NCBI GenBank assembly: GCA_963729625.1
Contig: CAVSOU010000015.1
Location: forward strand, 38,375-102,374
Source: an uncultured bacterium
GTDB taxonomy: Bacteria > Chloroflexota > UBA5177 > JANWHV01
Reading direction: 5' to 3'
Length of the DNA stretch: 64,000 bases
The stretch's first letter is position 1; every line of letters starts with the position of its first letter. This document shows, one piece after another, positions 14,261-29,789 of this stretch. Made by a program: the position numbers and the translations under genes. The notes beneath the pieces were generated by a model. The model did not search any database and was not told the origin of the DNA. It was given only the letters and a program-made list of their open reading frames with translations.

Positions 14261-14388
14261 CTGCGCGTCCAGGGCGGACTTGGACGTCCTCATACGACGC
14301 CGCCGGACCTCGTGGCCTTCACGAGGTTTCGAACCAGCCCGTACCGCGGACGCTTGCTCGAGAAGCGGGCGCCGCCGTACCCTGTAGG

Positions 14389-14824
14389 TCAGGCTACGAC
14401 CGCGAGCCGATCCAGGGCCTCACGCCACCGGCGCGATATCTCGGGAAGAATCGCGATTGCCATTTCCGGGTGCGACTCCAGCTCAACTCGGAAGTGCCAC
14501 TTGTACAGCGTCAGGCACACCGTATCTTCGAGCGCGACAACAGTTGCCGTGCGCGGGCGATCGTCCAGGAGAGCCATTTCGCCAAAGAATTGTCCCGCCA
14601 CGAGCTCGTCGAGCACGAGCGGCTCCCGGCCCAGTCGCTCTCGCCGCACCTCCACGCGCCCAGACACGATAATGCTCAGGTGGGTGCCCTCCTCACCCTG
14701 CCTGATGAATGACGTCCCCGGCCTGATACTGGCTCGTGCCAGTGCATTTCGCAAGGTAGCTGCGATGACTTTCGTTCAGGCTGCGGAAGAGATCAACCTC
14801 CGAGATCAACGCCATCACGTCCAC
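14389..14824 (-). CDS. Stand-alone cyclic nucleotide-binding domain protein (one frameshift near 14708)
   Basis: GTG 14824 after GGAAAGG; VDLFRSL..YQAGDV/IRQGEEG..IIVSGRVEV..GQFFGEMALLDDRPRTATV; no HTH. Confidence 0.88.
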
Positions 14825-15268
14825 GGGTATTGCCTTTCCATCCATTCCGCGCCTCGGTGGAGTTCACACCGGCAGCATCGTAAGGACGCCAACGCGCACG
14901 ACTGCCACCGACTGCGGCCTCCGGTGGCAGGCCGCGACAGCTCACTGATCAGTACGATACCTGTCGGCCGTCTTGAGCACAAATGCGACGCTGGAGTTGC
15001 ATCTGGTGTGCCTGCTTGGTGCCCGTATTTAGCGCCTTCTTATCGAAGCAGGTACAGTCTTAGTAGGACGCAGCGCGTCCGGCGGTGTCGGGGTCTACGA
15101 AGACATCGGACCTCCGGCTCCTCCACTGAGGATGCCGGTCGAGTCGTGTTTTGGGCGCGGGTTTCCATCGCTTTTGACGCTCGACAGGCTTCGGCACGAC
15201 AGCGGATGAGTGGCGCTGGACCCGGGTATTGGCTTCCGGAGTGCAGGCGTGGGTGCAGAGAGATCGTG

Positions 15269-15754
15269 ATGAATCAAAAGCGTGCGTGGGGTGTGTTCCG
15301 CGGACCCGGTCAGAAACCGATGAGCACCGAGACGCTGTTGTCTCAAGTCAGCCTGTTTCGGAGCCTTGACCAAAAGCAGCTCGCTCAGCTCGCCAAGCGC
15401 ATGGAGACGCGCCACTACGAAGAGGGCCAGGTAGTCCTGGCGGAAGATGAGCCGGGCGACGCACTGTATCTCGTCGTGTCCGGTCTGCTGCATCTCGAGA
15501 AGGCGCGACCGGGCCGGGAGCCAGTGCGCTTCGGTACGCTGGCGCCGGGCCAATTCTTCTGCGAGATGGCTCTGCTCGAGGACTCTCCACGCCTGGCCAC
15601 AATCAAGGCGGCCGAAGCCACTACCTGCCTGGCCCTGCGGAAAGATGCGTTTCAGGACGAGCTTGCAGCGCACCCGGCGATCGCCGTCGCGGTCGTCTTC
15701 GAGGTGTCGCGCCGCTTGCGTGACACTCTGGATGTGCTCGACGCCAACGGATAG
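15269..15754 (+). CDS. Stand-alone cyclic nucleotide-binding domain protein (alternative start 15320)
   Basis: VSLFRSLD..YEEGQVVLAEDEPGDALYLVVSG..GQFFCEMALLEDSPRLATIKA; no HTH. Confidence 0.88.
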   Translation: MNQKRAWGVFRGPGQKPMSTETLLSQVSLFRSLDQKQLAQLAKRMETRHYEEGQVVLAEDEPGDALYLVVSGLLHLEKARPGREPVRFGTLAPGQFFCEMALLEDSPRLATIKAAEATTCLALRKDAFQDELAAHPAIAVAVVFEVSRRLRDTLDVLDANG

Positions 15755-15866
15755 AAGCTGCCTTTTGTCGGCGCCGCCCTCCTGCGTCGTGCTGGCAGGT
15801 GGAGCGGCCTGCAGCGGGGCCCGGGTACCACGATGGTAGCTAACCCGAACGCTTAACAACACGGAT

Positions 15867-18800
15867 GTGCTGAGGGCGCTTGCCGCATTCATGCCAATCG
15901 ACCGGCGGCACGCACTGGCACGGGGTACGACGTTGCCCGCTCTTGCCACGGGCGCGGCGCTCTTTGCCGATATCTCCGGCTTCACTCCGTTGACCGAGTC
16001 CCTGCTGCGTGCGCTCGGGCCCCAGCGCGGCGCGGAGGAGCTTACTCACTTCCTGAACAGGGTCTACGATGCGCTCATCGCCGAACTGTATCACTACGGC
16101 GGCAGTGTGATCGGTTTCAGCGGCGACGCTATCACCTGCTGGCTCGACGGGGACGATGGTCGGCGAGCAGTCGCCTGCGGTCTGGCTATGCAACGCGCCA
16201 TGGCCCAGTTCGCCGCGACAGCAACGCCAAGCGGCGACTCGGTTTCCCTCGCGGTCAAGGTAGCGGCCGCCGCTGGCTCCGTCCGCAGGTTCGTGGTCGG
16301 AGATCCTGCCATCCAGCTTATTGACGTGGTGGCGGGACGGACTCTCGAACATCTCGCCGCGGCAGAGCACCTGGCGCAGAAGGGCGAAGTGGTCGTGCAT
16401 GATGCCACCGCGGCTGCGCTGGACGGTGTACTGCGTTCCGCGGAATGGAGAGCCGATGAAGCGCACGGTGATCGGGTCGCCGTCGTTGCATCGCTTACCG
16501 TCGCAGTGGACCAAAACCCGTGGCCGATCCTCCCGCCCGACGCCCTGCAAGAGGATATCGTCCGCCAGTGGGTGCTCCCGGCGGTGTACCAACGCGTGCG
16601 TACTGGCAGCGGCGAGTTTCTCGCCGAGCTGCGGCCCGCCGTCGCCCTGTTCCTGCGCTTTGGCGGCTTGGACTTCGAGCACGACGAGGCGGTGACCGGG
16701 AAGCTCGACGCCTATCTTCGCTGGGTACAGGGCATCCTCGCCCACTTCGAGGGCACACTGGTGCAGCTCACCATTGGCGATAAGGGGAGCTACCTGTACG
16801 CGGCATTTGGCGCGCCGATAGCACACGAGGACGACGCCGTACGCGCCGTCTCTGCCGCCTTCGCATTACGATCCCCGCCCGACACATTCGCCTACATAGG
16901 CGTGCCGCAGATCGGCATCAGCCGCGGGAGCATGCGCGCCGGCGCGTACGGCGCCCACGACGGCCGCACGTATGGCGTGCTTGGCGACGAGACGAACATG
17001 GCGGCGCGACTCATGCAAGCCGCACATCCCGGCCAGATTCTGGTCAGCGAAACCGCGCATCCGGCTGCTGCCGGTGTGGCGCAGTGGGAGCGCCTGCCAC
17101 CGATGCGCGTGAAAGGCAAGTCCAACCCGGTCACCGCCTACGCGGCCCTGGCCCCGATGGACCATCGAACCCTGCGGCTTCACGAACCCCGCTACACACT
17201 GCCCATGGTCGGCCGCGAGTCCGAGCTCGGAGTAATCGCGCAGCGGCTGGCACTGGCGCGCCGGGGCCGCGGTCAGGTTGTCGGTATTTCGGCAGAAGCG
17301 GGCATGGGCAAGTCCCGCCTCGTCGCGGAGGCTATTCGACTTGCGCAGGAGCAGGGCGTCGTCGCGTATGGAGGCGAGTGCCAGTCATACGGCAGTACCG
17401 CCAGCTACCTCGTCTGGCAGGACATTTGGCGCGGGCTCTTCGCGCTGGAGGAAGGTTGGACGGTCGAACAGCAGATCCAAACGCTGGAAACCACGCTGGC
17501 CCGTATCGATCCGGCGCTCGTGCCACGCGTGCCGCTGCTCGGCACCGTGCTCAACCTCTCCATCCCCGACACCGATCTCACCCGATCCTTCGACGCAAAA
17601 CTGCGCAAGAGCTCGCTGGAGGCCCTGCTGGTCGACTGCATGCGGGCACGGGCCGCGCAGGCCCCGCTGCTGCTCGTGCTTGAGGACTGCCACTGGATTG
17701 ATGCGCTGTCCGAGGATCTGGTGGAGGCGCTGGGCCGCGCCGCCGCAAACCTGCCGGTGCTGCTAGTCCAGTCATACCGGCCGCGCGACATCCGGAGCCT
17801 GTCCGGGCATCGCATGGAGGTGCTGAAGCACTTCACCGAGATCAAGCTCAGCTATTTCAGCGCGCAGGAGGCCGCGCAGTTGATCCAGCTGAAGCTCGAG
17901 CAGCTGAGCGGAGCGCGCTTGGGCGTGCCTGCGGAGGTGATCGAGCGCATCACGGCGCGTGCCGACGGCAACCCTTTCTACATCGAGGAGCTGATCAACT
18001 ACATCCGTGATCGCGACATCGATCCGCTGGATACGGCAGCGATGGCGCACATGGATCTGCCGACCAGCCTACACAGCTTGATCCTCAGCCGTATCGACCG
18101 GCTCGGCGAGCGAGAGAAGGTCGTGCTCAAGGTGGCGAGCGTCCTGGGCCGGCGCGTGCAGGCGGATTGGCTATCGGGGGCATACGGGCAACTTGGAGAT
18201 CTCCAGGGGTACGAGCCTGTCTCGATTCCCTCAGCACCGTCGATCTGCTGCCGCTGGATCAGCCGGAGCCGGACCTCGTGTACATCTTCAAGCACGTCGT
18301 TACCCAGGAAGTCGCATACCAGAGCCTGCCCTTCGCGCTGCGCGCCACCCTGCACGCGCAGTTGGGAGGTTTCATCGAGAATACCTATGGCGATACGCTC
18401 GACCAGTACGTCAGCCTGCTGGCCTTCCATTATGAGCGGACAGACGATGTGGCCAAGAAGTGCCATTACTTGATGCGAGCGGGCGAGCTAGCTCAGGCGG
18501 CCTATGCCAACGGTGCAGCCATCGACTACTACCTGCGGCTGCTCCCGTTGCTGTCCGGCGGGGCACGCGGGCCCGTCATGTTCAGGCTCGGCCAGGTGTT
18601 GGATCTCATGGGCGACTGGGGCAAGGCAGACGACCTGTATCGGCAAGCGCTTGACCTGGCCGTACAGCACGATGACCGGCATGGCCAGGCAGCCGGCCTG
18701 AGGGCACTGGGCTGGCTCAGAAGGAAACAGGGAGCATACGGCGATGCGGCATCTTACCTGGCCCAGGCGCGCGAGGCTTTCGAGCAAATGGACGATCTCG

Positions 18801-19771
18801 CGTCCGTGAGCCAGGTGATGACCGACACAGGCGAAGTCGCGCGGCAGTTGGGCGCCTTTGCCGAGGCCAGATCGTGGTATGAGCGAAGCCTCCGCCTTGC
18901 GGAATCCCTGGGCGAGCGTGAACAGTCTCTGCGGGCACAGGCGCAGGCACTGAAGGGCGCCGGGACACTGGCGAACCAGCAGGGCGATCGTTCGACGGCC
19001 CGCGCGCTGTACGAGCGGAGCCTGGAAATATACACGGAGGTTGGCGATCGGCCTGCGGTAGCGGTGCTCCTGAACAACGTGGGGGTCGCAATCCGTCACG
19101 CGGGAGAGTATGACGCTGCCCGAGCCATGACCGAAGAGAGCCTGGCCGTCTTCCGGGAGATCGGCGATCGCTGGTCCATGGGGCAACTGCTGAACAACCT
19201 GGGCTGCGTGGCTGGCGACATGGGAGACTATCCTGCCGCGCGGCGATTGCTGGAAGCGAGCCTCGACATCCGGCGCCAGATCGGAGATAGAAGCGGCCTG
19301 GCGCTCTCGCTCAACAGCCTTGGCGACGTGCTGTTGGACGAGGGCGACCACGCGGCAGCGCGTCCGGCCCTTGTCGAGAGCTTGCGGATCAACTGGGACC
19401 TGGGCGACCGGGCCGCTGTCGCCTATCTGCTCAATGACTTCGCGGCGCTGGCTGCCGCCGAAGGGCGGGTGGAGCGCGCTATCCAGCTGGCAGGCGCCGC
19501 GGTCGCGGCGCACGAGGCGACCGGCGCTGCGGTCTCACATGCCGAGCGAGAGCGGTTCGATCGATTGCTGCTGCCGGCTCGGCAGGCCCTGGCAGCGCCT
19601 CGTGTCGCGGCACTGGCTGCCGCGGGGCGCGCCCTGAAAATGGATGAGGCCGTGGCCTACGCGCTTGGAGTCGAGCCCGCCGACAAGCTCGGACCGAAAA
19701 GTGATGACGACGCTCCACACATTGACGAGCCTTCATTCGCGGTCAACCCGGGCGATCGGCGCGCAGTGTAG
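15867..19771 (+). CDS. sAC-like tandem class III adenylate/guanylate cyclase - AAA/STAND ATPase - TPR protein (frameshift near 18205)
   Basis: C1 FADISGFT and FSGDA; C2 GDKG, AFGAPIAHEDD, GDETNMAARLM; MVGRESEL, Walker A AEAGMGKSRL, Walker B LVLEDCHWID, GNPFYIEEL, YIFKH; GDR..LNNLG TPRs. Confidence 0.93.
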
Positions 19772-19881: not shown

Positions 19882-22800
19882 TCAGGCGACGGTCAGCGTG
19901 GCGCTGCTCGTCGCCGTGTGGCTGCTGCCATCCTTCGCCGTCAATGTGAGCATATACGTGCCCCGTGGGAAGGACTTCGTAATCGGGAAGCTTACACTCT
20001 GGCTGACGGTCTGCCCCGCCTTCAGGCTGAATGAGAGCGGAAGGTTGACGGTCAGGCTGCCATTGCTCCCTGTGTAGACCAGCTTGGCATTCACACTTAC
20101 GGTCTGGGTCGACGCAGTGTGGTTGCCGAGCGTGAAACTGGCAGTTACCGTCGAACCGGTGGTGACCGGGCCGCTAGAGCTGCTTGTCACCACCATCGCC
20201 AGATACAACGGCGGGTAAATGATGGTCAGCGTGCCGGTCACGTAGGTCGGGCTGTAATCGGCATCGTTCAGGGTACAGGAGGTCGGGTAGCTGCCGACCG
20301 GACTGTTGGATGTGGCAGTTGTGGTGCAGGCGGCCTTTGCCTGCTCGGACGTGGAGCTATCGCCATTCACGAGGCCCGTGAAACTGGCAGTGATGGCCGG
20401 AACCGTGCCGCCGTAGGTCATGCTGGGGCTGCTCGCGGTGATCGTGAGCGAGGCCGGCATAACGGTGAGTTTTCCCGTCCCGTAGCTGATACTGTAGTTG
20501 GGATCGGACGCCCCAGAACAGCTGGTCGTGTAGCTATTGACCGGACTGCTGGGGCTCACGCCGATGCAGGTCGGTGGGGTTGCCGGGGCGGCATTGCCGT
20601 TCACCAGGCCATTGTAGATGGGGCTGATGGCCGGCTCCGGGCCACCGTACGTCATGCTGGCGCTGCTGGCCGTGATGAGCAGCGATGCCGGGGTGACGGA
20701 GAGCGTGCCCGCTGCATAGCTGATGCTGTAGTTGGCGTCGGCCGCGCCCATGCAACTGGTCGCGTAGCTGCCGACCGTGTATTTGTTTGGCGTGGTGGTG
20801 ACGGCACAGGTTGGCATGGTGGTCAGGGTAGAGGGGCCGTCGCCGTTGACGAAGCCGCTATAGCTGGGTGTGATAACCGGCACCGTGCCGCCATAGGCCA
20901 TTGTGGGGCTGCCGGCCGTGATGGTCAGGCCTGCCGGGGTGATAGTTAGGGTCGCCGTGCCAGGCGCGCTGCTGCCGAGGTAATTCGGATCCGGAGAGCT
21001 CATACCGAAAGCAGCGGTCACGCCGTACGTACCGGCGGGAAGGGACAGACCGGCAAGCGCCGCGTTGCCGCCGGCGTCCGTGATCGCGACCTTCTGGCTC
21101 ACACTCGCACCGGTGATGGAGGTGATAGTGAAATACACCGACTTCTGGGCCAGACCGGTTCCGTTCGCCTGAAGCGTCGCCACGATCCCGGTGGACTGGC
21201 TGGAGCCGTATGTGGTGCTCGCCGAGGCCGGGGCCAGGGTAAGCATCGTCGACGCAGGGTCGATTTTGAACGTGCCGACGCTCGACGAGACGGCGTCGTA
21301 TGCAGTGCTGCCTACGGTCGCCCCCTCGTATGAAGCCCAGAGATCGTAAGTGCCGGGTGACTGGCCGAGCGGCATTGTAACCGAGGTCTGGCCGACCGGC
21401 AGCGTGACGGTGGCATGGCCGCTGTCGTTGGTCTCGGCGATTGCTTCCTCACTGCCAATATGTACGCCCACAGCCTGGTCCGGAATGCCCACGCCGCCCG
21501 AGTGCAGGCTCACCGTGAACTGGGCAGACGATTGATAGGCCCCGCTCGCCGGCGGCGACTGCAGCGTGAGTGTCGGGGTGACCTGGTTGGGCGCGCTGTC
21601 GGGAGCGACGGTAAAGTAGGCGCCGTTGTTGGTGTCAAGGCTGACCAGGCCAGTCGCGTTTGCCGCCTGAACCATATACACCGTACTGTAGGACAGGCCG
21701 GGGGCTGTGCCGGTCCAGAGTGATGGGTCGCCAGGACTGGGCGTCAAATCGAGCGACGTCCACTCGGTCGCGGCGGCGCCGCTGCTGCCGGGATCGTTGT
21801 ACGTGACCCACACATCCTGCAGATCCTCCTGCGTGCTGCCCGGCAACAGGTTGTTCTGCACCCGTACCTGGAATGTCACGGTCTTGTTCGTTGCATCTTC
21901 GGTGCTCGCCGCCCCGATGATGTTCGGCGCCGAGTCGAGCGCGGCGCCCGTACCAATTTGACTGACCAGCTCACTATTGCCGAGGTAGTACAGACGGAAC
22001 TTCAGGTCGGTGAACTGCCGCATCGTCCCCGACGTAGCGCCGGGTGAGGAAGACTTGTATTGCGCGGGCGCCACCGCCAGGCTCGTGAGCCCGCGGTTGA
22101 GCCCATCCACCGTATCGAAATAGTTGGCGCTCCAGACTTGCGTCGGGTAGAACACGTCGGAGAAGAAGGCCGGGTGGCCGACCGAGGTCTCGGTGCTCGG
22201 CGCCCCGGTGAGCGGCGTCACACCGGGGAGGTCCGTGTAGCTTCCGCCCCGGAACCCGATGCCCCGCAGCACCTGGTCGGACACCGTGGCATTGTAGAGC
22301 TGAAGCGGGAAGACCGGGTCGAGTGGATGGGTCACAACGCCACTGGCACCACTGAGCCAGCTCGCCGTCTCCGGGTTGCCGCCGCTCGCATCGGTGAGCG
22401 TCACGGTATTCGTCGTCGTCGTGGGAGTAACCTCGATTTCGGGCGAACCGGCTGCCGTCTGTCCGACGGCAAGCCCGAGGGCCGCACCCGGCCCCGCCGT
22501 GACGGTCGGCGCCGAACTGACTATCGAGTCGGACGTGGGCGGCGTACGCTGGCCCGGCATCTTCACCTGCAGCATGGGCAGCCCGTACAGGGTCGTCTCC
22601 AGCAGCGTCTTCTCGTCGATGCCGCCAAGGTCGACGTGCGTGTTCAGGTACTCTTGCTTGGCCGCCACGTTTGCCACCCCGATCGGCACCCCGCCCGTGC
22701 CCGTGCGCAACTGCTGGGCGACGTCGACGAAAAGGCGCTCACCGTACTCGGTCAACACGGTGTCGCCGTACGCGTAACCCGTTGCCGCCAGCAGTGTCGC

Positions 22801-25671
22801 GCCCTTCTGTGCCATCGCCTCCGGCCAATCGGGCGAGGGCGAGACGCCGGGGATGGCATCCTGGCCGGGGATGTTCAAGCCGCCGTGGCAGCCGAGCGCC
22901 AGCACCAATGTGTCGGTAAGGTCGGCCGTGGATGCGGCGACCTCGGCCGCGCTGAGCTGTGTCAGATAGTCGGATGCAAGCAGGTTCCCGGCGCTGAAGT
23001 GGCCGGCCAGGAACACGATGTCGTGCTGCTTGAGCCGAGGAGCTGCTGGCGAAGGTCGTCGGCCGTCCATATTGAGGGGTCGCTGGATGCCGCGCCCTGA
23101 GGCGCGATGAGCTCATCAGGGACGATGCACGTGCCGGCGGCGTCCAACCCGGTTGAGTGGTGCCGGCGGAGAGCTCAGCCGCCACGCTCGTGGCGGCATC
23201 GGCCACGAAATCGTATCCGGTTACCAGGGACGAGCTCGGGGTGATCACGCCGTTGGCGGCCGTGTAGGCGTCGAGCATATTGCTCGCCTCGGCGGCCGTG
23301 TCCACCAGGCGGCCGACTGCGATATCCGGGATCGGCATCGAGTGATCGCCGCGCGGAACGCTGGTGGACGAGCCATACTCGTCCTGTCCCAGGATGTAGT
23401 TGTCGCGCAGGCTGGCCTGGGTTGGGCTGCTGTCGCTCACCGGCGGGATGTAGCCGCTCTCCGGCGCCAGGCCCGATTCATCCGGGTAGCGGAAGAACGG
23501 GATGGAGTGGTCGTCACCGATCAGCACGATATACTTGACGGCGGTCGTGCCATCAGCATTGAGGTACGCCTTGCGGTAGCCCTGGATGACCGCTTTGATT
23601 TCCGCGGCTACCAGGTTCTTGGCTGCCGGGCACGCCGCGTTGTTGCTGTTGTCAGCCTGGATGTTCGCGTTCACCACTCGCTGGAACTGGCTCAGGTCGA
23701 TGACCTGGCCGTTCACGTCGGCGCGCTGCGCGAACGCTGCCATCTTGGACTGCAGGTGCGGACACGTCGGCGGCGGTAGTCGCCGGCAGCGCGTCGAGTC
23801 CCACCGTCGTGGAGTCCCACAGGATCAGGGTCTGCGGTGGACGTCCACGACCGTTGTCGTCGGCAGGGCCGCGTTGGTGCCGGACACGGGCGCGATGCCG
23901 CCGCACACACCGCCATCTTCGGTCACCGTGAGCGTGAACGCCCCGAGCGGGCCGGCAACGCGGACGTACAGGTTCCCGGTCAAGTCCCAGGTATTGCGGT
24001 CGATGCTGAGCGATGTCGCGGTGGGGCTGGTCGCGATCGCCATCAGGCTCTGGCGCGGCACGCTCGAATAGGCGCCAGGCAGATAGCCGGAGGGAAGATA
24101 GCCGGACGGCAGGTATCCCGATGGCAGATAGCCGGACGGCAGATAGCCCGACGGTAGATAGCCCGACGGCAGATAGCCCGAAGGAAGGTATCCCGACGGC
24201 AGATAGCCCGAAGGTAAGTACCCCGACGGCAGATAGCCTGATGGGAGGTAACCGGACGGCAGATAGCCGGATGGTAAGTAGCCGGATGGCAGGTAGCCGG
24301 ATGGCAGGTACCCGGACGGCAGGTACCCGGACGGCAGATAGCCCGAGGGCGCGTCCTGAATGGCCAGGTCGGCGGCGACCTTTGAAGCGGTCTGGGAATT
24401 GGTGAGGCTGTTATAGAGTTGCTGGATATCGGTATGCAGGCTCACGACGCTTCCGGCAGGCCCATTGAAGCTGATATGCACCTGCGCACCCGGCTGAACC
24501 GGGAAGTCGTACCAGCGCTCCTCGCCCTGCGCGTACATGCTATGTGGGACGGATGGGTTCTGGGGAACAATCACGCTCTGCGATCCGGGGGCTGACCACA
24601 AAGGCGTCGCGGTATCCCAGCTGTCGTTCCCCTGGACCGTAGCGATGCACGATGACTGCGCCGACACCGGACCGGACGGGCCGCTCGCCGTGGCCGCGAT
24701 CTCTGTGTTCGCGGTGGGGACCGTACCCTGCACGGTGGGCGAGAAGGGAGCCGTGCCCGAGACATCCGTCGTCACGGTAACGGGGTTGGCACCGATCATC
24801 GTCGGAGAAGCACCGCAGGTGTAGAACGCGAGCGCGTACTGCGTGTTCGGGGCGGCGCCGCTGAGCTGGCCGAAGATCGTGGTGCCGAAGGTCCCGGCGC
24901 CGGCGCCGGGATGGGTCTCGGCGAGCGTCAGGGTGGGAGCGGGCGGCGGAGTCGCGGTGGCGGTGGCCGTCGCGGTGGCGGTGGCTGTCGCGGTAGTGGT
25001 GGCTGTCGCGGTAGTGGTGGCTGTCGCGGTAGTGGTGGCCGTCGCGGTGTTGGTTGGCGTGGCAGTGGATGCGTTACAGGACACTGTGCCTGGAATGCTC
25101 ATTATGATGCCGGAGCACTGCGCGCCTGCGACAAATACCGTAAACGCGTCGCCGATGTGGAGCTGCCAATTATATGCAGGTCCATAGGCGTTTCCGAAGG
25201 TGAATGTGACCTGAGTGGACGAGAAGCTGCTGAACGCGATGCCAATGCAATTAGCAACCTGGCCACCGGTCGGATCCGCTTGACCCGCATTCCAGTTCGC
25301 GGTCGTGTCATCGAATCCATACTGCTGGTACGCGTAGTTGGAACCTGAATGACTACCACATTCATACGGCGAGATTTGGCTGTGTGCCATAACGGGGCAG
25401 GTTGCACGCCGAAATTGCTCCCTGTGACCGTGACCGTTGGGGCGGCTGCACTGCCTTCGAAAATGACGCTCGCGATCACCGGGCCGGCGGCATGGGCCAC
25501 CGGCACCGAGTCAGCAGGGCCGATCGCGGCCACCTGCGACAGGAGCAGGCAAGACAGGGCGAACAGTGGAACCAGCCCGCGACGCGAGATCCAAAGGCCG
25601 GAGCGGTGGAAGTGGCGGCCCATGAAGGCGCGATTCGCAGTCCCTGGCACCACTTGCAATTGTTTCATCAT
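19882..25671 (-). CDS. Large secreted multidomain protein (~1900 aa): Ig/TIG-like - TA linker - PPC-like domain with (PSGYL)18 - peptidase C25-like - Big/MBG Ig repeats; several frameshifts
   Basis: Joined from ORFs 25102-25704, 23825-25390, 23652-23906, 22739-23743, 22962-23147 and 19882-23070; signal peptide ..VPVAHA; KYIVLIGDDHSIPF, PDIAVGRLVD, FLAGHF, LGCHGG, TTLYGLP; three LTITASS.SMTYGG MBG-type repeats. Confidence 0.85.
24080..24349 (-). repeat. 18 x 15-bp coding tandem repeat encoding (PSGYL)18
   Basis: 270 bp = 18 units; protein units identical while DNA units differ at synonymous sites. Confidence 0.97.
24950..25066 (-). repeat. Thr/Ala low-complexity linker (TATATTTATA...) with 18-bp tandem units
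   Basis: GGTAGTGGTGGCTGTCGC-type units repeated; encodes TATPTNTATATTTATATTT...TPPP. Confidence 0.85.
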
Positions 25672-26269: not shown

Positions 26270-29200
26270 ATGAACCCGTTGTATGGCGTGCTGAAGATCA
26301 GACCCGGCGAGGCGCGGCTGGTCCTTTCTCTGGCCGTCCTCTACTTTTCGCTCGGCATCGCCTTCGTCCTCACGCAGGCGGCGGCGTTCGCATTGTTCTT
26401 GACCAAGTACAGCGCGTCGACGTTGCCGCTCGCCTACATGGCCATCGCGGTCGTGCTGTCCCCGGTCACATTTGCGTATTTAAAGCTGGCAGATCGCCTC
26501 GCGCTTCCCCGGCTGCTGACTTTGAACCTTGGCGTTCTCCTGATCGTCAGCCTCGTGCTACGCCTCGGCCTGGCGGTCCACAACGCCGGCTGGGTGGTCT
26601 TCGTGCTGCCGATCTGGTTCCAGGGAATCGTCAATCTCGGCAATCTCGCCTTCTGGACGCTCACCGGCCGGGTCTTCGACGTGCGGGAAGGCAAGCGTCT
26701 GTTCGGCCTGGTTGGCGCGGGCAACTGGCTGGCCGCGATCGCCGGTGGCTTTCTCACGGGGCCGCTTGTCGTGCTCTTCGGCACGGCGAACCTTCTGGCT
26801 GTTGCGGCGGTTGCTCTCGCCGTCGCTCTCGTGCTCCAGGGAGCACTGCTTCGTTCCTGTGCCGACCGACTCGTTGTCTCGCGCGGAGGCGATCGCCCAC
26901 GCGATCAAGGGGCGAGCCGGCGCGTGCCGCGCAATCGCTATGTGCTCCTGATCTTCGCTCTTGTCTTGTTCTGGTGGCTCGGGTTCTACGTCATCGACAA
27001 CATCTTCTACATCAGGGCCTCCGCGCAGTTCCCCACCGCTGGAAGGCTGGCGAGTGCAGTGGGAATCCTTTACGGCTGCCAGGGAGTCCTGGCGCTGGTG
27101 ACCACGACACTTGGGACGAGCCGGCTGCTGGGCCGGTATGGCCTGCGCGGGGGCCTGCTTGTGATGCCCAGCGTCTGCGCTGCAAGCATCGGCGCCCTCG
27201 CCTTCGGTGGCACGTTAGGCGCCGCGACATCGGTCCTCTTTCTCATGTCGGCACTCGCTAAACTGGTCAGCGTGGCGCTGGGATTCTCCCTGGAACAGGC
27301 ATCGTTCGTTATTCTCTACCAGCCACTACCGCCTGAGCAACGGCTGCGCCTGCAGACCACGGCAGAAGGCATCGTGCAACCGATCGCCGTGGGCATCGCC
27401 GGGGCGATGCTTCTGGTATTGCACCGGCTTCTGTCGTTCAGCTCTGTTCAGCTTTCGTATCTCTTTCTCCTGATCGTGAGCGTCTGGATCGCTGTGGTGC
27501 TGGCGATCGTGCGCGAATATCCCAAAGCGCTCGGGCGCGCGCTTGCCTCACGGCGCCTCGGCGGCGCCTCGCTGGCGCCGATCGATAGCACACGCCGACG
27601 TGTGCTGGAGGCGGCCCTCCATGACCGCCATCCGGGCGTGGCGTTGTATGCCCTGTCGCTTCTGGCCGACGACGATCCATCGGCCTTGATGGCGGCCGCA
27701 CCCGTCGTCCTGGCCCATCCCATGCCTGAAGTGCGGCGGGAGGTCCTGGAGCGAATCGAGCACGCCGGCGCGTCCGCCGATTGTGACGCCGTGCGCCATT
27801 GCGCGGAAAACGATCCATCGCCGATCGTGCGGGCTGCTGCGCTTCGCGCACTGGCGGCGCTGTATTGCGCGGCCGTGTTTCAGGAAATCGCCCGATCGAT
27901 GGACGATGCAGATGCAGAGGTCAGGCGAGGGGCCATGGCCGGGCTGCTGCTCTACGGCGGCACCGAAGGGGCTATTGCAGCCGGCCAGAAGCTGCATGGC
28001 TTGGTATCATCCGCGAGTCCTCTGGATCGGGCCTTGGCAGCCGAAGTCCTTGGGGACGTGGGCGTGCGCAGTTCCCACCAGCCGCTACTGATGCTTATGG
28101 ACGATGCCGATGCCGATGTGCGCTGGAAGGCGCTCGCCGCCGCGGGCAAGGTGCGACATGCCGCACTATGGCCCCGTGTCGTGGCGCGGATCTCGGATCC
28201 GAGTCCCAGGGTGCGCGACGCGGCGAGTCTGGCCCTGGTCTCGGGAGGCACGGAGGTTGTGCCAGCGATCGCACCGGCGCTGCAGCGGCTTGGCGCCGAG
28301 CATCGTGCGGAGCGTTTGCGCCTCGTGCGCATCTGTGGGCGCGTGGGCGGCATGGCCGCGATCGATCTGCTGTGCAAAGAAGCGGACTCTTCCGACGCGG
28401 GCACTCGACTGCAGATACTGGAGGCGCTGAGCGCGTGCGGCTATCACGCTTCCGCTAGGGATGCGGCGAGCGTCTGGCAGCGTGTTCGGCGAGAAGTGGC
28501 TGAGGCTGCCGCGAGCCTGGCCGCTCTCGGCGACATCGGCAGCGACTACGATACGGCGCTCCTTTCCGGCGCCATTGCCCTCCAGGTAGAGGGCGCACGC
28601 GACCGTGCGGTGATCCTCCTGTCATTCGTCCTGCCTGCGCAGCCTATCCTGTCGGCGCGTGCCGCACTGAAGCTCGGCGCGGGAACGCTTCGCTCCTACG
28701 CCGTGGAAGTGATCGACAGCTTGCTTCCTTCGGAATGGAAGCGGCGCGTACTTCCGTTGCTGGAGGGTGTGCCGCCCGAAGTTCAGCTGCGGCGTCTGGC
28801 GGCGGAATTCCCCCAAGAACGAATGAGCCGCGAGAAGCGTGTGATCGAGATCATAGCCGGCCTGGGAACAGGTCGGGACGCCTGGACCAGGGCTTGCGCA
28901 CTGCATGTAGCAGGCTGTAGCGGCCAGCTCTCCGCGGCGCCTGCCATCACCGCGTCGTGCGGCGCACCTGACCCAGTCGTGCGAGAGACTGCCCGCTTCG
29001 CGCTCGCACAGCTGCAGGCCGAGGCCGCCGATCGCGGCGCACGTACGTCTGTCGGCACGCATGGCGCAGCAGTGGAGGCTGCGCGACCAGGGAAGGAAGG
29101 AGCTGAGGCAGTGTTTTCCACGGTCGAGCGCGTGATCATTCTCAAATCAATAGGCATGTTTGCGCAAAGTCCGGACGACGTGCTCGTTGATGTCGCAGGC

Positions 29201-29789
29201 ATCGTCGGCGAGGTCCATCTGGCTGCCGGCTCGTCGATATTTGAAAAGGGCGACCAGGGCAGCAGCATGTACATCATCGTCAGCGGAAGGGTAAGGGTGC
29301 ACGACGGGAACCACACGTTGAGCGAGCTGGCCGAGCGCGACGTGTTCGGTGAAATGGCGCTGCTGGATCCCGAGCCGCGGGTTGCGTCGGTCACGGCGGT
29401 CGAGGACACTGTCGCTCTTCGGTCTGGATCAAGACGCGTTCTACGCTCTGATGGCCGACCGGAGCGAGGTGGCGCGCGGTGTGATTGCCGTTCTCACCGC
29501 TCGTTTGCGCGAGCGCGTGCGAGACGCCGCCAGTCTGGGCGCTCGGGTACGTGAGCTCGAGCAGCTCGTGCGAGCTCAGGGCGAAGCACAACTGATACCG
29601 CGGCAGCACCGTGCGCGTGGCACGTTCGTGGACGGAAGGGCGCTTGATCGGGATCCCGCTGCCCGAGATGTGTCGGCGCGAGGACGAGCGCGTGTACTGG
29701 GTCCGCACCAACGATCCCGCGGCACGGCACCGCCCTTGCGCCGCAGCAGAACTCGAGACCGGCTGAAACAGATGGGCGGTGCTCAATGA
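26270..29789 (+). CDS. NTT (Npt1/TLC-like) transporter - HEAT repeats - cNMP-binding domain fusion (frameshift near 29423; exact stop uncertain)
   Basis: IRPGEARLV, FWTLTGRVFDVREGKRLFGLVG, ILYQPLP (NTT motifs); many D.D.EVR..A HEAT units; STVERVIILK..IFEKGDQG..FGEMALLDPEPRVASV. Confidence 0.9.

What the first reader, a model, noticed from the sequence alone, without database searches (positions are those of the whole stretch)
24080..24349. Eighteen perfect PSGYL pentapeptides with synonymous-only DNA variation, inserted within a folded domain
Seen: 18 x 15 bp with every unit encoding exactly PSGYL, while codons vary (CCG/CCA/CCT/CCC, TCC/TCG/TCA, GGC/GGG/GGA/GGT, TAT/TAC, CTG/CTT/CTC/CTA/TTA). 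That pattern indicates an old array under strict amino-acid selection rather than recent slippage. It lies between ERWYDFPVQPGAQVHISF and SLSIDRNTWDLTGNLYVRVAG, which look like two halves of one PPC-like beta-sandwich, just upstream of the protease domain. Inference: a Tyr-ladder beta-solenoid, an elastomeric/resilin-like di-tyrosine cross-linking segment, an assembly module, or a tandem array of substrate peptides released by the protein's own protease.
Basis: partly seen in the sequence, partly recalled or inferred. Interest (0 to 1): 0.72.

Follow-up and report, generated by a model that had tools for sequence, protein, structure and literature searches.

The report
Letter-perfect pentapeptide loop beside a protease
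Eighteen identical PSGYL units form a long loop inside a small beta-sandwich domain just before a gingipain-type protease domain of a giant secreted protein; hundreds of relatives keep such a loop letter-perfect, each with its own five-residue unit, and its job is still unknown.

Summary
Window 24080-24349, minus strand, encodes 18 x PSGYL. All 40 departures from the consensus unit are synonymous.

The array is a loop at one hairpin of a PPC/collagen-binding-like beta-sandwich (AF2 plus VIA-align, Z 11.8). It lies about 70 residues before a gingipain-type C25 domain (Z 33.2 to RgpB). The host is a roughly 1,900-residue secreted Chloroflexota protein. The gene is frame-broken here, probably by assembly indels, and is intact in a sister species that also has 18 x PSGYL.

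This is a family trait. Of 213 relatives with both sandwich halves, 208 carry period-5 or period-10 arrays at this site. They use 83 different units with the consensus P-x-x-[FYW]-[SLAT], and the median is 18 units. Arrays change 13 times more slowly than the catalytic region (1.4% against 18.2%). Whole units nevertheless switched at least 17 independent times.

AF2 twice predicts no regular structure for the array. The function is unresolved. My favoured reading, at about 0.3, is a latency loop of self-substrate sites for the adjacent protease. The rivals are a self-stacking or assembly repeat, an adhesive multivalent loop, and released pentapeptides.

I found no paper describing it. This scan has met the same family three times before.

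The parts
24080..24349 (-). Array of 18 x PSGYL (15-bp units). This is the loop itself: P0001 residues 348-437, P0124 residues 94-183.
   Evidence: AF2 pLDDT is below 50 with no secondary structure.
24431..24628 (-). N-terminal half of the PPC/collagen-binding-domain-like beta-sandwich. It runs from NDSWDTA to VVSLH and includes ERWYDFPVQPGAQVHISF.
   Evidence: AF2 strands 26-65 have pLDDT above 90. VIA-align Z 11.8 to 5iku and Z 10.2 to 5sv5, with the alignment spanning model residues 1-237.
24350..24430 (-). Helical lead-in to the array (TDIQQLYNSLTNSQTASKVAADLAIQDA).
   Evidence: AF2 helices 68-76 and 78-91. An equivalent segment of the L-x-x-LSAE-x-A type occurs in relatives.
23909..24079 (-). 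Exit of the loop (PGAYSSVPRQ, a degenerate last unit plus an Arg), followed by the C-terminal half of the beta-sandwich (SLMAIATS ... NLYVRVAG ... FTLTVTE).
   Evidence: AF2 strands 195-239 have pLDDT above 90. Among 175 relatives anchored on the return strand, Arg is at position -1 in 115 and at position -2 in 61.
23825..25390 (-). Open frame that holds the array (P0001, 521 aa). It is a fragment of the full gene. It also contains a Thr/Ala-rich linker and an Ig-like segment upstream of the sandwich. It ends at TGA 23825-23827.
25393..25623 (-). N-terminal fragment of the same gene in another frame. It has a Sec-type signal peptide by eye (MGRHFHRSGLWISRRGLVPLFALSCLLLSQVAAIG...AHA).
   Evidence: tblastn places G001 protein residues 24-100 here in a different frame. 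Coordinates are; the translation is.
22570..23815 (-). Gingipain-type (C25, clan CD) catalytic domain, spread over three frames in this assembly. The His motif FLAGHFSAG is at 22987-23013 and the Cys motif LALGCHGG at 22879-22902.
   Evidence: Pfam Peptidase_C25, 30.2 bits against a cut-off of 23. Frame map; motif coordinates. His and Cys are invariant in 51 of 51 aligned relatives. The ortholog model gives Z 33.2 to RgpB.
19882..22569 (-). Conserved post-protease region and C-terminal Ig-like/MBG domains of the same protein.
   Evidence: Pfam MBG_2 x3, E 3.9e-35. Collinear with G001 residues 924-1810.

Best explanation
SHOWN
- The array is coding sequence on the minus strand.
- It forms a 90-residue loop that leaves and re-enters a PPC/collagen-binding-domain-like beta-sandwich at a single hairpin. 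The hairpin follows the strand that corresponds to the 'DYDLxLY' strand of PPC domains.
- The loop sits about 70 residues upstream of a gingipain-type cysteine peptidase domain with an intact His/Cys dyad.
- The host is a roughly 1,900-residue secreted multidomain protein of a Chloroflexota bacterium.
- It is the local version of a family-wide module. Relatives carry at the same hairpin a homogeneous array, nearly always of pentapeptides P-x-x-[F/Y/W]-[S/L/A/T], with lineage-specific units and a median of 18 units.
- Purifying selection keeps all units of an array identical, more strictly than it conserves the catalytic domain. Whole arrays have nevertheless been replaced by a new unit many times.

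INFERRED (about 0.3)
The beta-sandwich acts as a prodomain-like module. The array would then be an expanded, non-globular counterpart of the 'inhibitory loop' of the RgpB prodomain: a string of identical recognition or cleavage sites for the neighbouring peptidase.
- As a tethered pseudo-substrate at very high local concentration, it would keep the enzyme latent.
- Cutting within the array, or at the Arg that usually sits at its C-terminal base, would open the sandwich and activate the protease, or shed part of the protein.
- Each unit is about as long as a protease subsite footprint. That would explain why every position of every unit is constrained, and why the unit can differ between lineages.
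For: Position and fold
-.
- The array-bearing sandwich accompanies the C25 domain in 213 of the 255 relatives that match the post-array query. The other 42 are cut at the N-terminus or lack the N-terminal half.
- The His/Cys dyad is invariant in 51 of 51 aligned relatives.

The loop is non-globular
- AF2 gives pLDDT 32-45 and no secondary structure in two runs, with alignments of 34 and 51 sequences.

Strength of constraint
- 0 non-synonymous against 40 synonymous departures in G000, 38 in G001 and 25 in G010.
- In 29 independent same-unit pairs the arrays differ at 40 of 2830 positions (1.4%). The next ~520 residues of the same pairs differ at 18.2%.
- 25 of 44 PSGSL proteins share the exact architecture 6 + PTG[YF]L + 16, although their catalytic regions are only 59-95% identical.

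Precedent
- The RgpB zymogen has an N-terminal prodomain whose loop puts Arg126 into the S1 pocket, and that loop is the first cleavage site. I read passages of PMC4357240.

Residue pattern
- Units almost never contain Lys or Arg: 3 of 83 do, binomial p = 1e-7 against a 5.7% background.
- An Arg usually sits just before the return strand: at -1 in 115 and at -2 in 61 of 175 anchored relatives. This is what an Arg/Lys-specific C25 enzyme with one designated cut site would favour.
Against: - No residue of the unit is common to all lineages as a P1 candidate. Units end in L, S, A or T.
- A co-variation test found no catalytic-domain column that changes with the unit. It used 17 independent unit-switch pairs, 29 control pairs and 477 columns. 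The best uncorrected p was 0.0013, which does not survive correction. The test has low power.
- If positions 2-3 are free to differ between lineages, a permissive cleft should tolerate single-unit variants, yet these are rare. A model with contacts between units explains that pattern more simply.
- AF2 did not dock the loop on the protease with any confidence. I could not read model coordinates, so the distance from the loop base to the catalytic Cys is unknown.
- The sandwich resembles a collagen-binding/PPC domain. The RgpB prodomain chain is not among the 50 rows shown.
- No biochemical data exist.
Confidence: 0.3

Rival explanations
1. The array is an ordered, self-stacking repeat element. 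It could be a beta-solenoid, a beta-spiral or a homotypic zipper, within one chain or between chains. Identical units would pack on one another, and the element would serve as a fixed-geometry structural or assembly module projecting from the sandwich.
For: - This reading best explains why all units must be alike while the unit itself may change. Arrays differ at 1.4% against 18.2% for the catalytic region, yet there are at least 17 independent whole-array unit switches, for example PDQFS against PDIFS at 87-88% catalytic identity.
- Proline and a hydrophobic or aromatic residue keep fixed positions. Position 4 is F, Y or W in 68 of 83 units.
- Conserved internal landmarks sit at a similar fractional position: PTG[YF]L at unit 7 of 23, PDAYA at unit 5 of 18.
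- Copy number is kept within clades. There are 18 units in G000, G001 and P0005. GNLNAI x8 occurs in five loci of one genus, one of them with all eight DNA units identical, which suggests the array was re-homogenised at the same number.
- Distant homologues carry hexapeptide arrays with a hydrophobic residue every third position at the same site.
- 59 of 83 units fall on the compact side of the charge-hydropathy line (the formula is recalled).
Against: - AF2 predicts no regular structure in two runs, although it usually recognises solenoids.
- No Pfam pentapeptide-repeat hit at E <= 0.01.
- With Phe or Tyr taken as the centre residue, position i-2 is D, E or Q in 32 of 83 units. That is unlike the recalled A(D/N)LXX consensus.
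- The two ends of the array must meet at one hairpin.
- Copy number ranges from about 4 to 33 without quantisation, and differs in 16 of 29 same-unit pairs.
- The oligomer prediction could not be run.
Confidence: 0.25
2. The array is a flexible, multivalent 'sticker and spacer' loop. Evenly spaced aromatic or Leu stickers on a Pro/Ser/Gly/Asp spacer would bind a polymeric ligand (cell-wall or sheath polysaccharide, or the protease's insoluble substrate) or make the surface protein cohesive. The collagen-binding-like sandwich would be the anchor.
For: - The host domain has the fold of a substrate-binding domain (ColG CBD, Z 11.8).
- The loop is predicted to be disordered.
- One aromatic or Leu per five residues, enriched P 19%, S 18% and F 12% against 5%, 8% and 3% in the background.
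- The proteins are giant secreted multidomain proteins with adhesin-type domains: beta-helix, cadherin-like, Ig-like, MBG.
Against: - Sticker-spacer or linker regions normally tolerate substitutions. Letter-perfect conservation of all five positions, 13-fold slower than the catalytic region, is not expected.
- Net charge varies between lineages, from neutral PSGYL through acidic PDAFS to basic SPFKA, which argues against one common ligand.
Confidence: 0.15
3. The array is a polyprotein of identical pentapeptides that the adjacent protease cuts out and releases. The peptides would act as lineage-specific extracellular signals or other small products, by analogy with multi-copy pheromone, neuropeptide or RiPP precursors.
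For: - It explains identical units, constraint on all five residues, lineage-specific units with frequent switching (like pherotypes), tolerance of copy-number change (lengths differ in 16 of 29 pairs), lack of structure, secretion and the obligatory neighbouring protease.
- The conserved Pro and aromatic positions could be processing determinants, and the variable positions specificity determinants.
Against: - Units abut without spacers or recognition sites.
- Cleavage would have to occur at or next to X-Pro bonds, or after different P1 residues in different lineages.
- Conserved odd units at fixed positions are hard to explain.
- There is no receptor, transporter or modification gene next to the gene. 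Its neighbours are a cyclase-AAA-TPR protein and a HEAT/cNMP-binding protein.
- A 1,900-residue surface protein is an expensive precursor.
- No peptide data exist.
Confidence: 0.1
4. The array is neutral low-complexity filler produced by replication slippage in a tolerant loop, with no function of its own.
For: - The loop sits at a surface hairpin, where insertions are tolerated.
- Some arrays are young at the DNA level: PGTYL x15 with only 4 distinct DNA units, GNLNAI x8 with 1.
- Array length varies across the family.
Against: - All 40, 38 and 25 departures from the consensus unit in three species are synonymous.
- Arrays evolve 13 times more slowly than the catalytic region.
- The period and the P and aromatic positions are kept across 83 units.
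- Ser codons stay within TCN.
Confidence: 0.03

Closest known systems
RgpB (gingipain R) zymogen: N-terminal prodomain with an 'inhibitory loop' (PDB 4IEF; reviewed in PMC4357240)
   Same: - The catalytic domain is of the same fold and family type: Z 33.2, rmsd 2.6 A over 313 residues, with a His/Cys dyad.
- A beta-rich domain lies directly N-terminal of the catalytic domain and carries a protruding loop.
- In RgpB that loop mimics a substrate and is the first cleavage site (passages read).
   Different: - Here the N-terminal domain has the PPC/collagen-binding fold, and it stays inside a much larger protein.
- The loop is 90 residues of identical pentapeptides with no Arg or Lys inside it.
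- Whether it reaches the active site or is cleaved is not known.
- Sequence identity to RgpB is about 15%, and phmmer finds no PDB relative.
PPC (pre-peptidase C-terminal, PF04151) and collagen-binding domains of clostridial collagenases (ColG s3b, 5IKU/2O8O; 5SV5)
   Same: Same beta-sandwich fold: Z 11.8, rmsd 2.3 A over 102 residues at 22% identity, and Z 10.2 for a PPC domain. Many relatives keep a 'DYDLxLF/Y' strand motif.
   Different: - No Pfam PPC hit at E <= 0.01.
- The domain is N-terminal of the protease, not C-terminal.
- One hairpin turn is replaced by a helix plus a 60-150-residue repeat array.
Pentapeptide repeat proteins (Rfr fold: MfpA, Qnr, HetL; PF00805 clan)
   Same: Tandem five-residue period with a hydrophobic or aromatic residue at a fixed position.
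   Different: - No Pfam match.
- Units start with Pro and are identical to one another. Natural Rfr repeats vary.
- AF2 predicts no beta-helix.
- The consensus differs from the recalled A(D/N)LXX.
Ser-Asp repeat regions of staphylococcal Clf/Sdr surface proteins, and elastin/resilin-type or FG/LARKS-type low-complexity repeats (all recalled, not tested)
   Same: Short repeats in secreted or structural proteins that are perfect or near-perfect at the protein level. In the SD repeats the DNA varies synonymously. There are Pro/Gly/Ser spacers with periodic aromatic residues.
   Different: Those are in-line stalks or whole-protein materials, not a loop closed by a folded domain beside a protease. 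Their units tolerate variation. Tyr is not general in this family: it holds position 4 in 20 of 83 units.
Multi-copy peptide precursors (pheromone, neuropeptide or RiPP polyproteins such as fungal dikaritin precursors and plant BURP-domain core-peptide proteins; recalled)
   Same: Many identical short cores in one precursor, conserved at the protein level with synonymous DNA variation. In the BURP-domain case the cores are fused to the processing protein.
   Different: The known precursors separate cores by recognition or cleavage spacers and have dedicated maturation genes. Here the units abut and no such genes lie nearby.

Membership tests
Peptidase family C25 (gingipain type, clan CD): host protein | Pfam PF01364 match above the gathering score | tested here: met
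   The window frame 22739-23824(-) scores 30.2 bits against a cut-off of 23, E 3.6e-7. Relative P0077 scores 37.5 bits over profile positions 46-348.
Peptidase family C25 (gingipain type, clan CD): host protein | Catalytic His and Cys dyad in the Gly-His ... Gly-Cys context | tested here: met
   FLAGHFSAG at 22987-23013 and LALGCHGG at 22879-22902. H540 and C577 are invariant in 51 of 51 aligned sequences.
Peptidase family C25 (gingipain type, clan CD): host protein | Gingipain catalytic-domain fold | tested here: met
   Model of the G001 ortholog: RgpB 4ief_D Z 33.2 (313 aa, rmsd 2.6 A); Kgp Z 28.8; the next family, separase, Z 16.6. Foldseek E 3.5e-11.
Peptidase family C25 (gingipain type, clan CD): host protein | Arg/Lys specificity at P1 and proteolytic activity | not testable with these tools
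   No sequence-level alignment to a solved gingipain is available to map the S1 Asp (one search found no hit).
PPC / collagen-binding-domain beta-sandwich | Fold | tested here: met
   Z 11.8 to 5iku, 11.5 to 2o8o and 10.2 to 5sv5, with the alignment spanning both halves (model residues 1-237). Foldseek E is only 0.02-0.04 but TM normalised to the target is 0.62-0.73.
PPC / collagen-binding-domain beta-sandwich | Pfam PF04151 sequence match | tested here: not met
   No PPC hit at E <= 0.01 for the window fragment or for four relatives. The ESM Atlas neighbours carry PPC in 10-89% of members, which is a lead only.
Pentapeptide repeat proteins (Rfr fold) | Match to PF00805/PF13599/PF13576 | tested here: not met
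   No such hit at E <= 0.01.
Pentapeptide repeat proteins (Rfr fold) | Right-handed quadrilateral beta-helix | tested here: inconclusive
   AF2 gives pLDDT 32-45 and no strands for the array in two runs. A negative prediction does not exclude a fold.
RgpB-type zymogen prodomain with inhibitory loop | Beta-rich domain directly N-terminal of the catalytic domain, carrying a protruding loop | tested here: met
   In the AF2 model of G001 residues 394-1150 the sandwich occupies model residues 24-240, the loop 87-185 and the catalytic domain 264-689. pTM is 0.76.
RgpB-type zymogen prodomain with inhibitory loop | Loop occupies the S1 pocket and is cleaved on activation | not testable with these tools
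The feature itself is taken from PMC4357240.
RgpB-type zymogen prodomain with inhibitory loop | Fold of the RgpB prodomain | tested here: inconclusive
   The prodomain chain of 4IEF is not among the 50 rows shown for the sandwich model. The best matches are CBD/PPC domains.
Multi-copy peptide precursor (pheromone/RiPP polyprotein) | Identical cores separated by recognition or cleavage spacers | tested here: not met
   The units abut directly with no spacer.
Multi-copy peptide precursor (pheromone/RiPP polyprotein) | Dedicated maturation, export or receptor genes nearby | tested here: not met
   The neighbours are a cyclase-AAA-TPR protein and a HEAT/cNMP-binding protein. Only this window and two relatives' loci were inspected.
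Resilin/elastin-like elastomer with di-tyrosine cross-links | Tyr in every unit across the family | tested here: not met
   Position 4 is Tyr in 20 of 83 majority units, Phe in 44, Ser in 9 and Trp in 4.

The most novel reading that the evidence does not exclude
The module is a protease-fused peptide factory with a built-in identity code. The gingipain-type domain would cut its own loop into about 18 identical, lineage-specific pentapeptides (PSGYL here) that act as extracellular signals or kin labels. The 17 or more independent unit switches would then be pherotype changes. Equally unusual would be a repeat fold or register-free zipper, so far undescribed, in which only identity between units matters.
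Probability: 0.12. Interest if true: 0.9.

Novelty: new variant of a known kind. Interest (0 to 1): 0.62.

Why it matters
Short perfect repeats in bacterial proteins are usually written off as slippage products or floppy linkers. In this family a loop predicted to be disordered is conserved 13 times more strictly than the enzyme next to it, across a family with 2,491 representatives at 50% identity. Yet the whole loop is periodically rewritten with a new five-residue unit.

That combination, where units must match each other but the unit itself is free to change, is a clear and testable signature. It points either to contacts between units or to a co-evolving reader such as the neighbouring protease.

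Working it out would reveal one of three things: a new zymogen-control principle for clan CD peptidases, a new repeat architecture, or a new route to small peptides. It would also give a function to a large group of unannotated giant surface proteins of Chloroflexota, which are abundant in digesters, sediments and soils. The family further offers a natural data set for studying how coding repeats are kept stable by synonymous diversification.

Tried and rejected
- Reads. Only one public run was found (contigs, 0.09 of the sampled words). Its pieces do not cover the array or the frame breaks, so copy number and indels remain unchecked.
I used the genome search instead.
- Complex prediction (three copies of the sandwich with its loop, to test self-assembly) could not be run. 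The queue was full or the job was not sent on.
- 60-bp (4-unit) super-period, read as a hint of a four-sided solenoid: not significant (lag-4 p = 0.08).
- Positional orthology of units between G000 and G001: none (3.28 against 3.22 differences per unit). Flanking four-fold sites are also near saturation (36 of 71), so this result says nothing about array turnover.
- Co-variation of catalytic-domain columns with the unit: nothing survives correction.
- phmmer against PDB sequences: no hit, so the S1 pocket could not be mapped.
- The Pfam hits 'PMG protein' (16.7 bits against a cut-off of 29) and 'Extensin_1' (27.3 against 105) are compositional and were dropped.
- The own-genome search found no second array. 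Other hits were the antisense frame or low-complexity matches.
- The ESM Atlas gave only PPC-flavoured neighbours.
- Literature. There were no papers for six literal repeat strings and none for Chloroflexi + peptidase C25 + tandem repeat. Listings for CSLREA/PxKF/choice-of-anchor, for perfect repeats + synonymous + pentapeptide and for gingipain-like/Chloroflexi/Anaerolineae/C25 showed nothing on this loop. I saw listings and abstract starts only.
- Charge-hydropathy places 59 of 83 units on the 'compact' side, which is not decisive.


Full report
OBSERVATION

The plus strand of window 24078-24350 shows a 15-bp repeat. Tandem Repeats Finder reports 17.7 copies, 79% matches and score 266, plus a 60-bp row with score 329.

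The coding strand is the minus strand. ORF 23825-25390(-) (P0001, 521 aa) contains 18 uninterrupted PSGYL units at residues 348-437, which correspond to window 24080-24349. Sixteen of the 18 DNA units are distinct.

All 40 departures from the consensus unit are synonymous, although only 14 of the 45 possible single changes would be. A rough probability of that by chance is 5e-21.

Ser is encoded only by TCN. AGY is used 0 times in 18, whereas AGY makes up 46% of Ser codons in 490 long ORFs of the genome (p = 2e-4). Pro and Gly codons are close to genomic usage. This pattern fits an old array drifting by single synonymous steps under amino-acid selection.

THE GENE

P0001 is only a piece of the gene. 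A same-genus genome, G001, has an intact 1,811-aa ORF (P0002) that is 74% identical over P0001 residues 108-514.

Mapping P0002 onto the window shows one collinear gene from about 25623 to 19888. Its frame changes near 25393/25315, 23150 and 23030. By eye there are two compensating shifts near 23850 and 23755, around the TGA at 23825-23827.

The neighbouring cyclase-AAA-TPR gene is a single 1,303-aa ORF in G001. In the window it is also split between two frames at about 18207. G000 is a 21-contig assembly, 87% complete. I therefore read the breaks as probable assembly indels, not gene decay. Reads could not settle this.

The N-terminal fragment carries a Sec-type signal peptide by eye.

ARCHITECTURE

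AlphaFold2 was run on window residues NDSW...VSGT (P0124, 251 aa) with a 34-sequence alignment.
- The two flanks fold into one beta-sandwich with pLDDT above 90. Strands 26-65 come from the upstream half and 195-239 from the downstream half.
- Two helices (68-91) lead into the array.
- The array itself (95-183) has pLDDT below 50 and no secondary structure.

The sandwich matches the ColG collagen-binding domain (5iku: Z 11.8, rmsd 2.3 A, 102 residues, 22% identity) and a PPC domain (5sv5: Z 10.2). Foldseek E-values are weak (0.02-0.04), but TM-scores normalised to the target are 0.62-0.73. There is no Pfam PPC hit.

A second model covered G001 residues 394-1150 (757 aa, 51-sequence alignment). 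Mean pLDDT is 82 and pTM 0.76, and the array is again at pLDDT 32-38. Its catalytic domain matches RgpB at Z 33.2 (313 residues, rmsd 2.6 A) and Kgp at Z 28.8, far above separase at Z 16.6 (Foldseek 3.5e-11). The His and Cys of the dyad are invariant in 51 of 51 aligned relatives. Both are present in the window at 22987-23013 and 22879-22902.

THE FAMILY

Searching with the post-array part of P0002 returned the following.
- 633 proteins at E <= 1e-5 among 7,999 scored candidates, of which 120 were listed.
- 2,491 representatives at 50% identity at E <= 1e-3, with 899 at E <= 1e-30 and 150 listed.

I pooled the 259 listed proteins. They are not independent of one another. I dropped P0001, P0124 and the duplicate P0004.
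- 4 lack the post-array match.
- 42 are N-terminally cut or lack the upstream half.
- 213 have both halves.
- Among those 213 the best tandem period between the halves is 5 in 193, 10 in 15, 7 in 3, 8 in 1 and 12 in 1.

The 202 clear period-5 or period-10 arrays use 83 different majority units. Residue counts per position are as follows.

| Position | Residues (count of 83 units) |
|---|---|
| 1 | P 76 |
| 2 | S 22, D 20, A 9, G 7, Q 6, E 6 |
| 3 | A 23, G 16, Q 10, S 8 |
| 4 | F 44, Y 20, S 9, W 4 |
| 5 | S 36, L 28, A 11, T 6 |

The median length is 18 units, with an interquartile range of 13.4-20.6.

PSGYL x18 is found in G000, G001 and a metagenomic relative, P0005. A same-class genome, G010, has PQQFL x12.

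More distant C25 relatives carry hexapeptide arrays at the same hairpin: GNLNAI x8, GRISAI x6, AFVGGN x17 and others. One carries an octapeptide array, and one relative lacks the sandwich altogether.

In a sample of the phylum, 27 of 401 genomes had the protease core at E <= 1e-20. Names carried by homologues point to Chloroflexota: Anaerolineales, Chloroflexales, Oscillochloris. A few point to Actinomycetota.

No Pfam or NCBIfam model covers the sandwich-plus-array.

HOW THE ARRAYS EVOLVE

Synonymous-only variation is repeated in G001 (38 changes) and G010 (25 changes). It is also seen in other loci: PSGSL x22 with 21-22 distinct DNA units, and SSPWN x8 with 8 of 8 distinct. Other arrays are young at the DNA level: PGTYL x15 has only 4 distinct DNA units, and one GNLNAI x8 array has a single one.

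Between G000 and G001 there is no unit-by-unit codon correspondence (3.28 against 3.22 differences). Flanking four-fold sites are equally near saturation (36 of 71, against 41 of 68 in the array). Ordinary orthologous divergence is therefore sufficient to explain this.

In 29 phylogenetically independent pairs that share a unit, arrays differ at 40 of 2,830 aligned positions (1.4%). The following ~520 residues differ at 18.2%. Array length is equal in 13 of the 29 pairs.

Twenty-five of 44 PSGSL proteins have the identical architecture of 6 units, PTG[YF]L, then 16 units. Their catalytic regions are nevertheless only 59-95% identical, with a median of 77%.

Yet close relatives can have different units throughout. 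PDQFS and PDIFS occur in proteins whose catalytic regions are 87-88% identical, and PSGYL and PSQSL in proteins 80% identical. At least 17 independent switches can be picked.

The constraint is therefore mainly that all units of an array be alike, within a P-x-x-aromatic-x frame.

MECHANISM

None of this shows what the loop does.

My favoured reading, at about 0.3, borrows from the RgpB zymogen. There an N-terminal prodomain puts a loop with Arg126 into the S1 pocket, and that loop is the first cleavage site. I read passages of PMC4357240.

On this reading the array would be a tethered string of identical recognition or cleavage sites that keeps the neighbouring peptidase latent until it is cut. 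Three points fit:
- its position;
- the predicted lack of structure;
- the near-absence of Lys and Arg in units (3 of 83; p = 1e-7), together with a frequent Arg just before the return strand (at -1 in 115 and at -2 in 61 of 175).

Four points count against it:
- there is no common P1 residue;
- the co-variation test was negative, although weak (best uncorrected p 0.0013 over 477 columns);
- AF2 did not dock the loop on the protease;
- a permissive cleft does not explain why single-unit variants are purged.

That last pattern is explained better by contacts between units, that is, by the self-stacking or assembly rival (0.25). AF2's two negative predictions, the closed-hairpin geometry and the unquantised copy numbers argue against that rival.

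The remaining readings are an adhesive multivalent loop (0.15), released lineage-specific pentapeptides (0.1) and neutral filler (0.03, contradicted by the substitution data). The self-assembly prediction could not be run because the queue stayed full.

COMPARISON AND NOVELTY

The host protein is a structural member of the C25/gingipain family. The sandwich has the PPC/CBD fold without a sequence match to that family. The array is not a member of the Rfr pentapeptide-repeat family: it has no HMM hit, a different consensus and no predicted helix.

Literal-string and keyword searches found no paper on this loop (listings and abstract starts only).

This scan has met the same family three times on other genomes: SPSVF x18, DSWSP x13, and GSIAx arrays. 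Those notes reached the same descriptive conclusion, which I had reached independently before reading them.

I rate it a new variant of a known kind: a gingipain-type protein with an N-terminal beta-sandwich and loop. It has an unusually sharp evolutionary signature and an open mechanism.

Noticed in passing
window 19888-25623 (-) and 15855-19687 (+): Two adjacent long genes are each split across reading frames here, although both are single intact ORFs in the same-genus genome G001. The protease gene has about five breaks. The cyclase-AAA-TPR gene has one, at about 18207. The assembly probably carries indel errors, so other 'pseudogenes' in this window deserve caution.
   Followed up: partly
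window 24951-25068 (-): There is a second repeat in the same gene: an 18-bp unit, 5.4 copies, 95% matches. It encodes a Thr/Ala-rich linker (TATATT...). G001 has a different Thr/Pro/Ser-rich linker (TNTSTPTPTA) at the same place, so this one behaves like an ordinary variable linker, unlike the PSGYL array.
   Followed up: partly
window 14312-19771 and 26270-29554: The protease gene is flanked by cyclic-nucleotide signalling genes: a cNMP-binding protein (14312-15754), an adenylate/guanylate cyclase-AAA_16-TPR protein, and a HEAT-repeat protein with a cNMP-binding domain. The cyclase gene is also the neighbour in G001. In G010 the adjacent ORF is a different 783-aa gene that I did not annotate.
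   Followed up: partly
L036, L042, L044-L054 (loci): Distant C25 relatives carry hexapeptide arrays (GNLNAI, GNLDAI, GRISAI, SIARIR, IGQINA, GQIYFT, AFVGGN) at the same hairpin. GNLNAI x8 is kept in five loci of one genus, with between 1 and 7 distinct DNA units of 8. Several units loosely resemble the recalled [LIV]-[GA]-x2-[STA]-x hexapeptide signature of left-handed beta-helices.
   Followed up: partly
L027:3354-6533 (-) (G010): The G010 homologue (PQQFL x12) loses its frame exactly at the catalytic Cys motif (LVLALGLPWRIQH in place of LVLALGCHGG). That genome is also a roughly 20-contig assembly, so this too may be an assembly indel.
   Followed up: no
relatives P0020, P0024, P0032 and others: Many arrays hold one or two conserved odd units at fixed positions: PTG[YF]L at unit 7 of 23 in PSGSL arrays, and PDAYA at unit 5 of 18 in PSVFS arrays. 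Both lie about 0.3 of the way along the array. The window's PSGYL array has none.
   Followed up: partly
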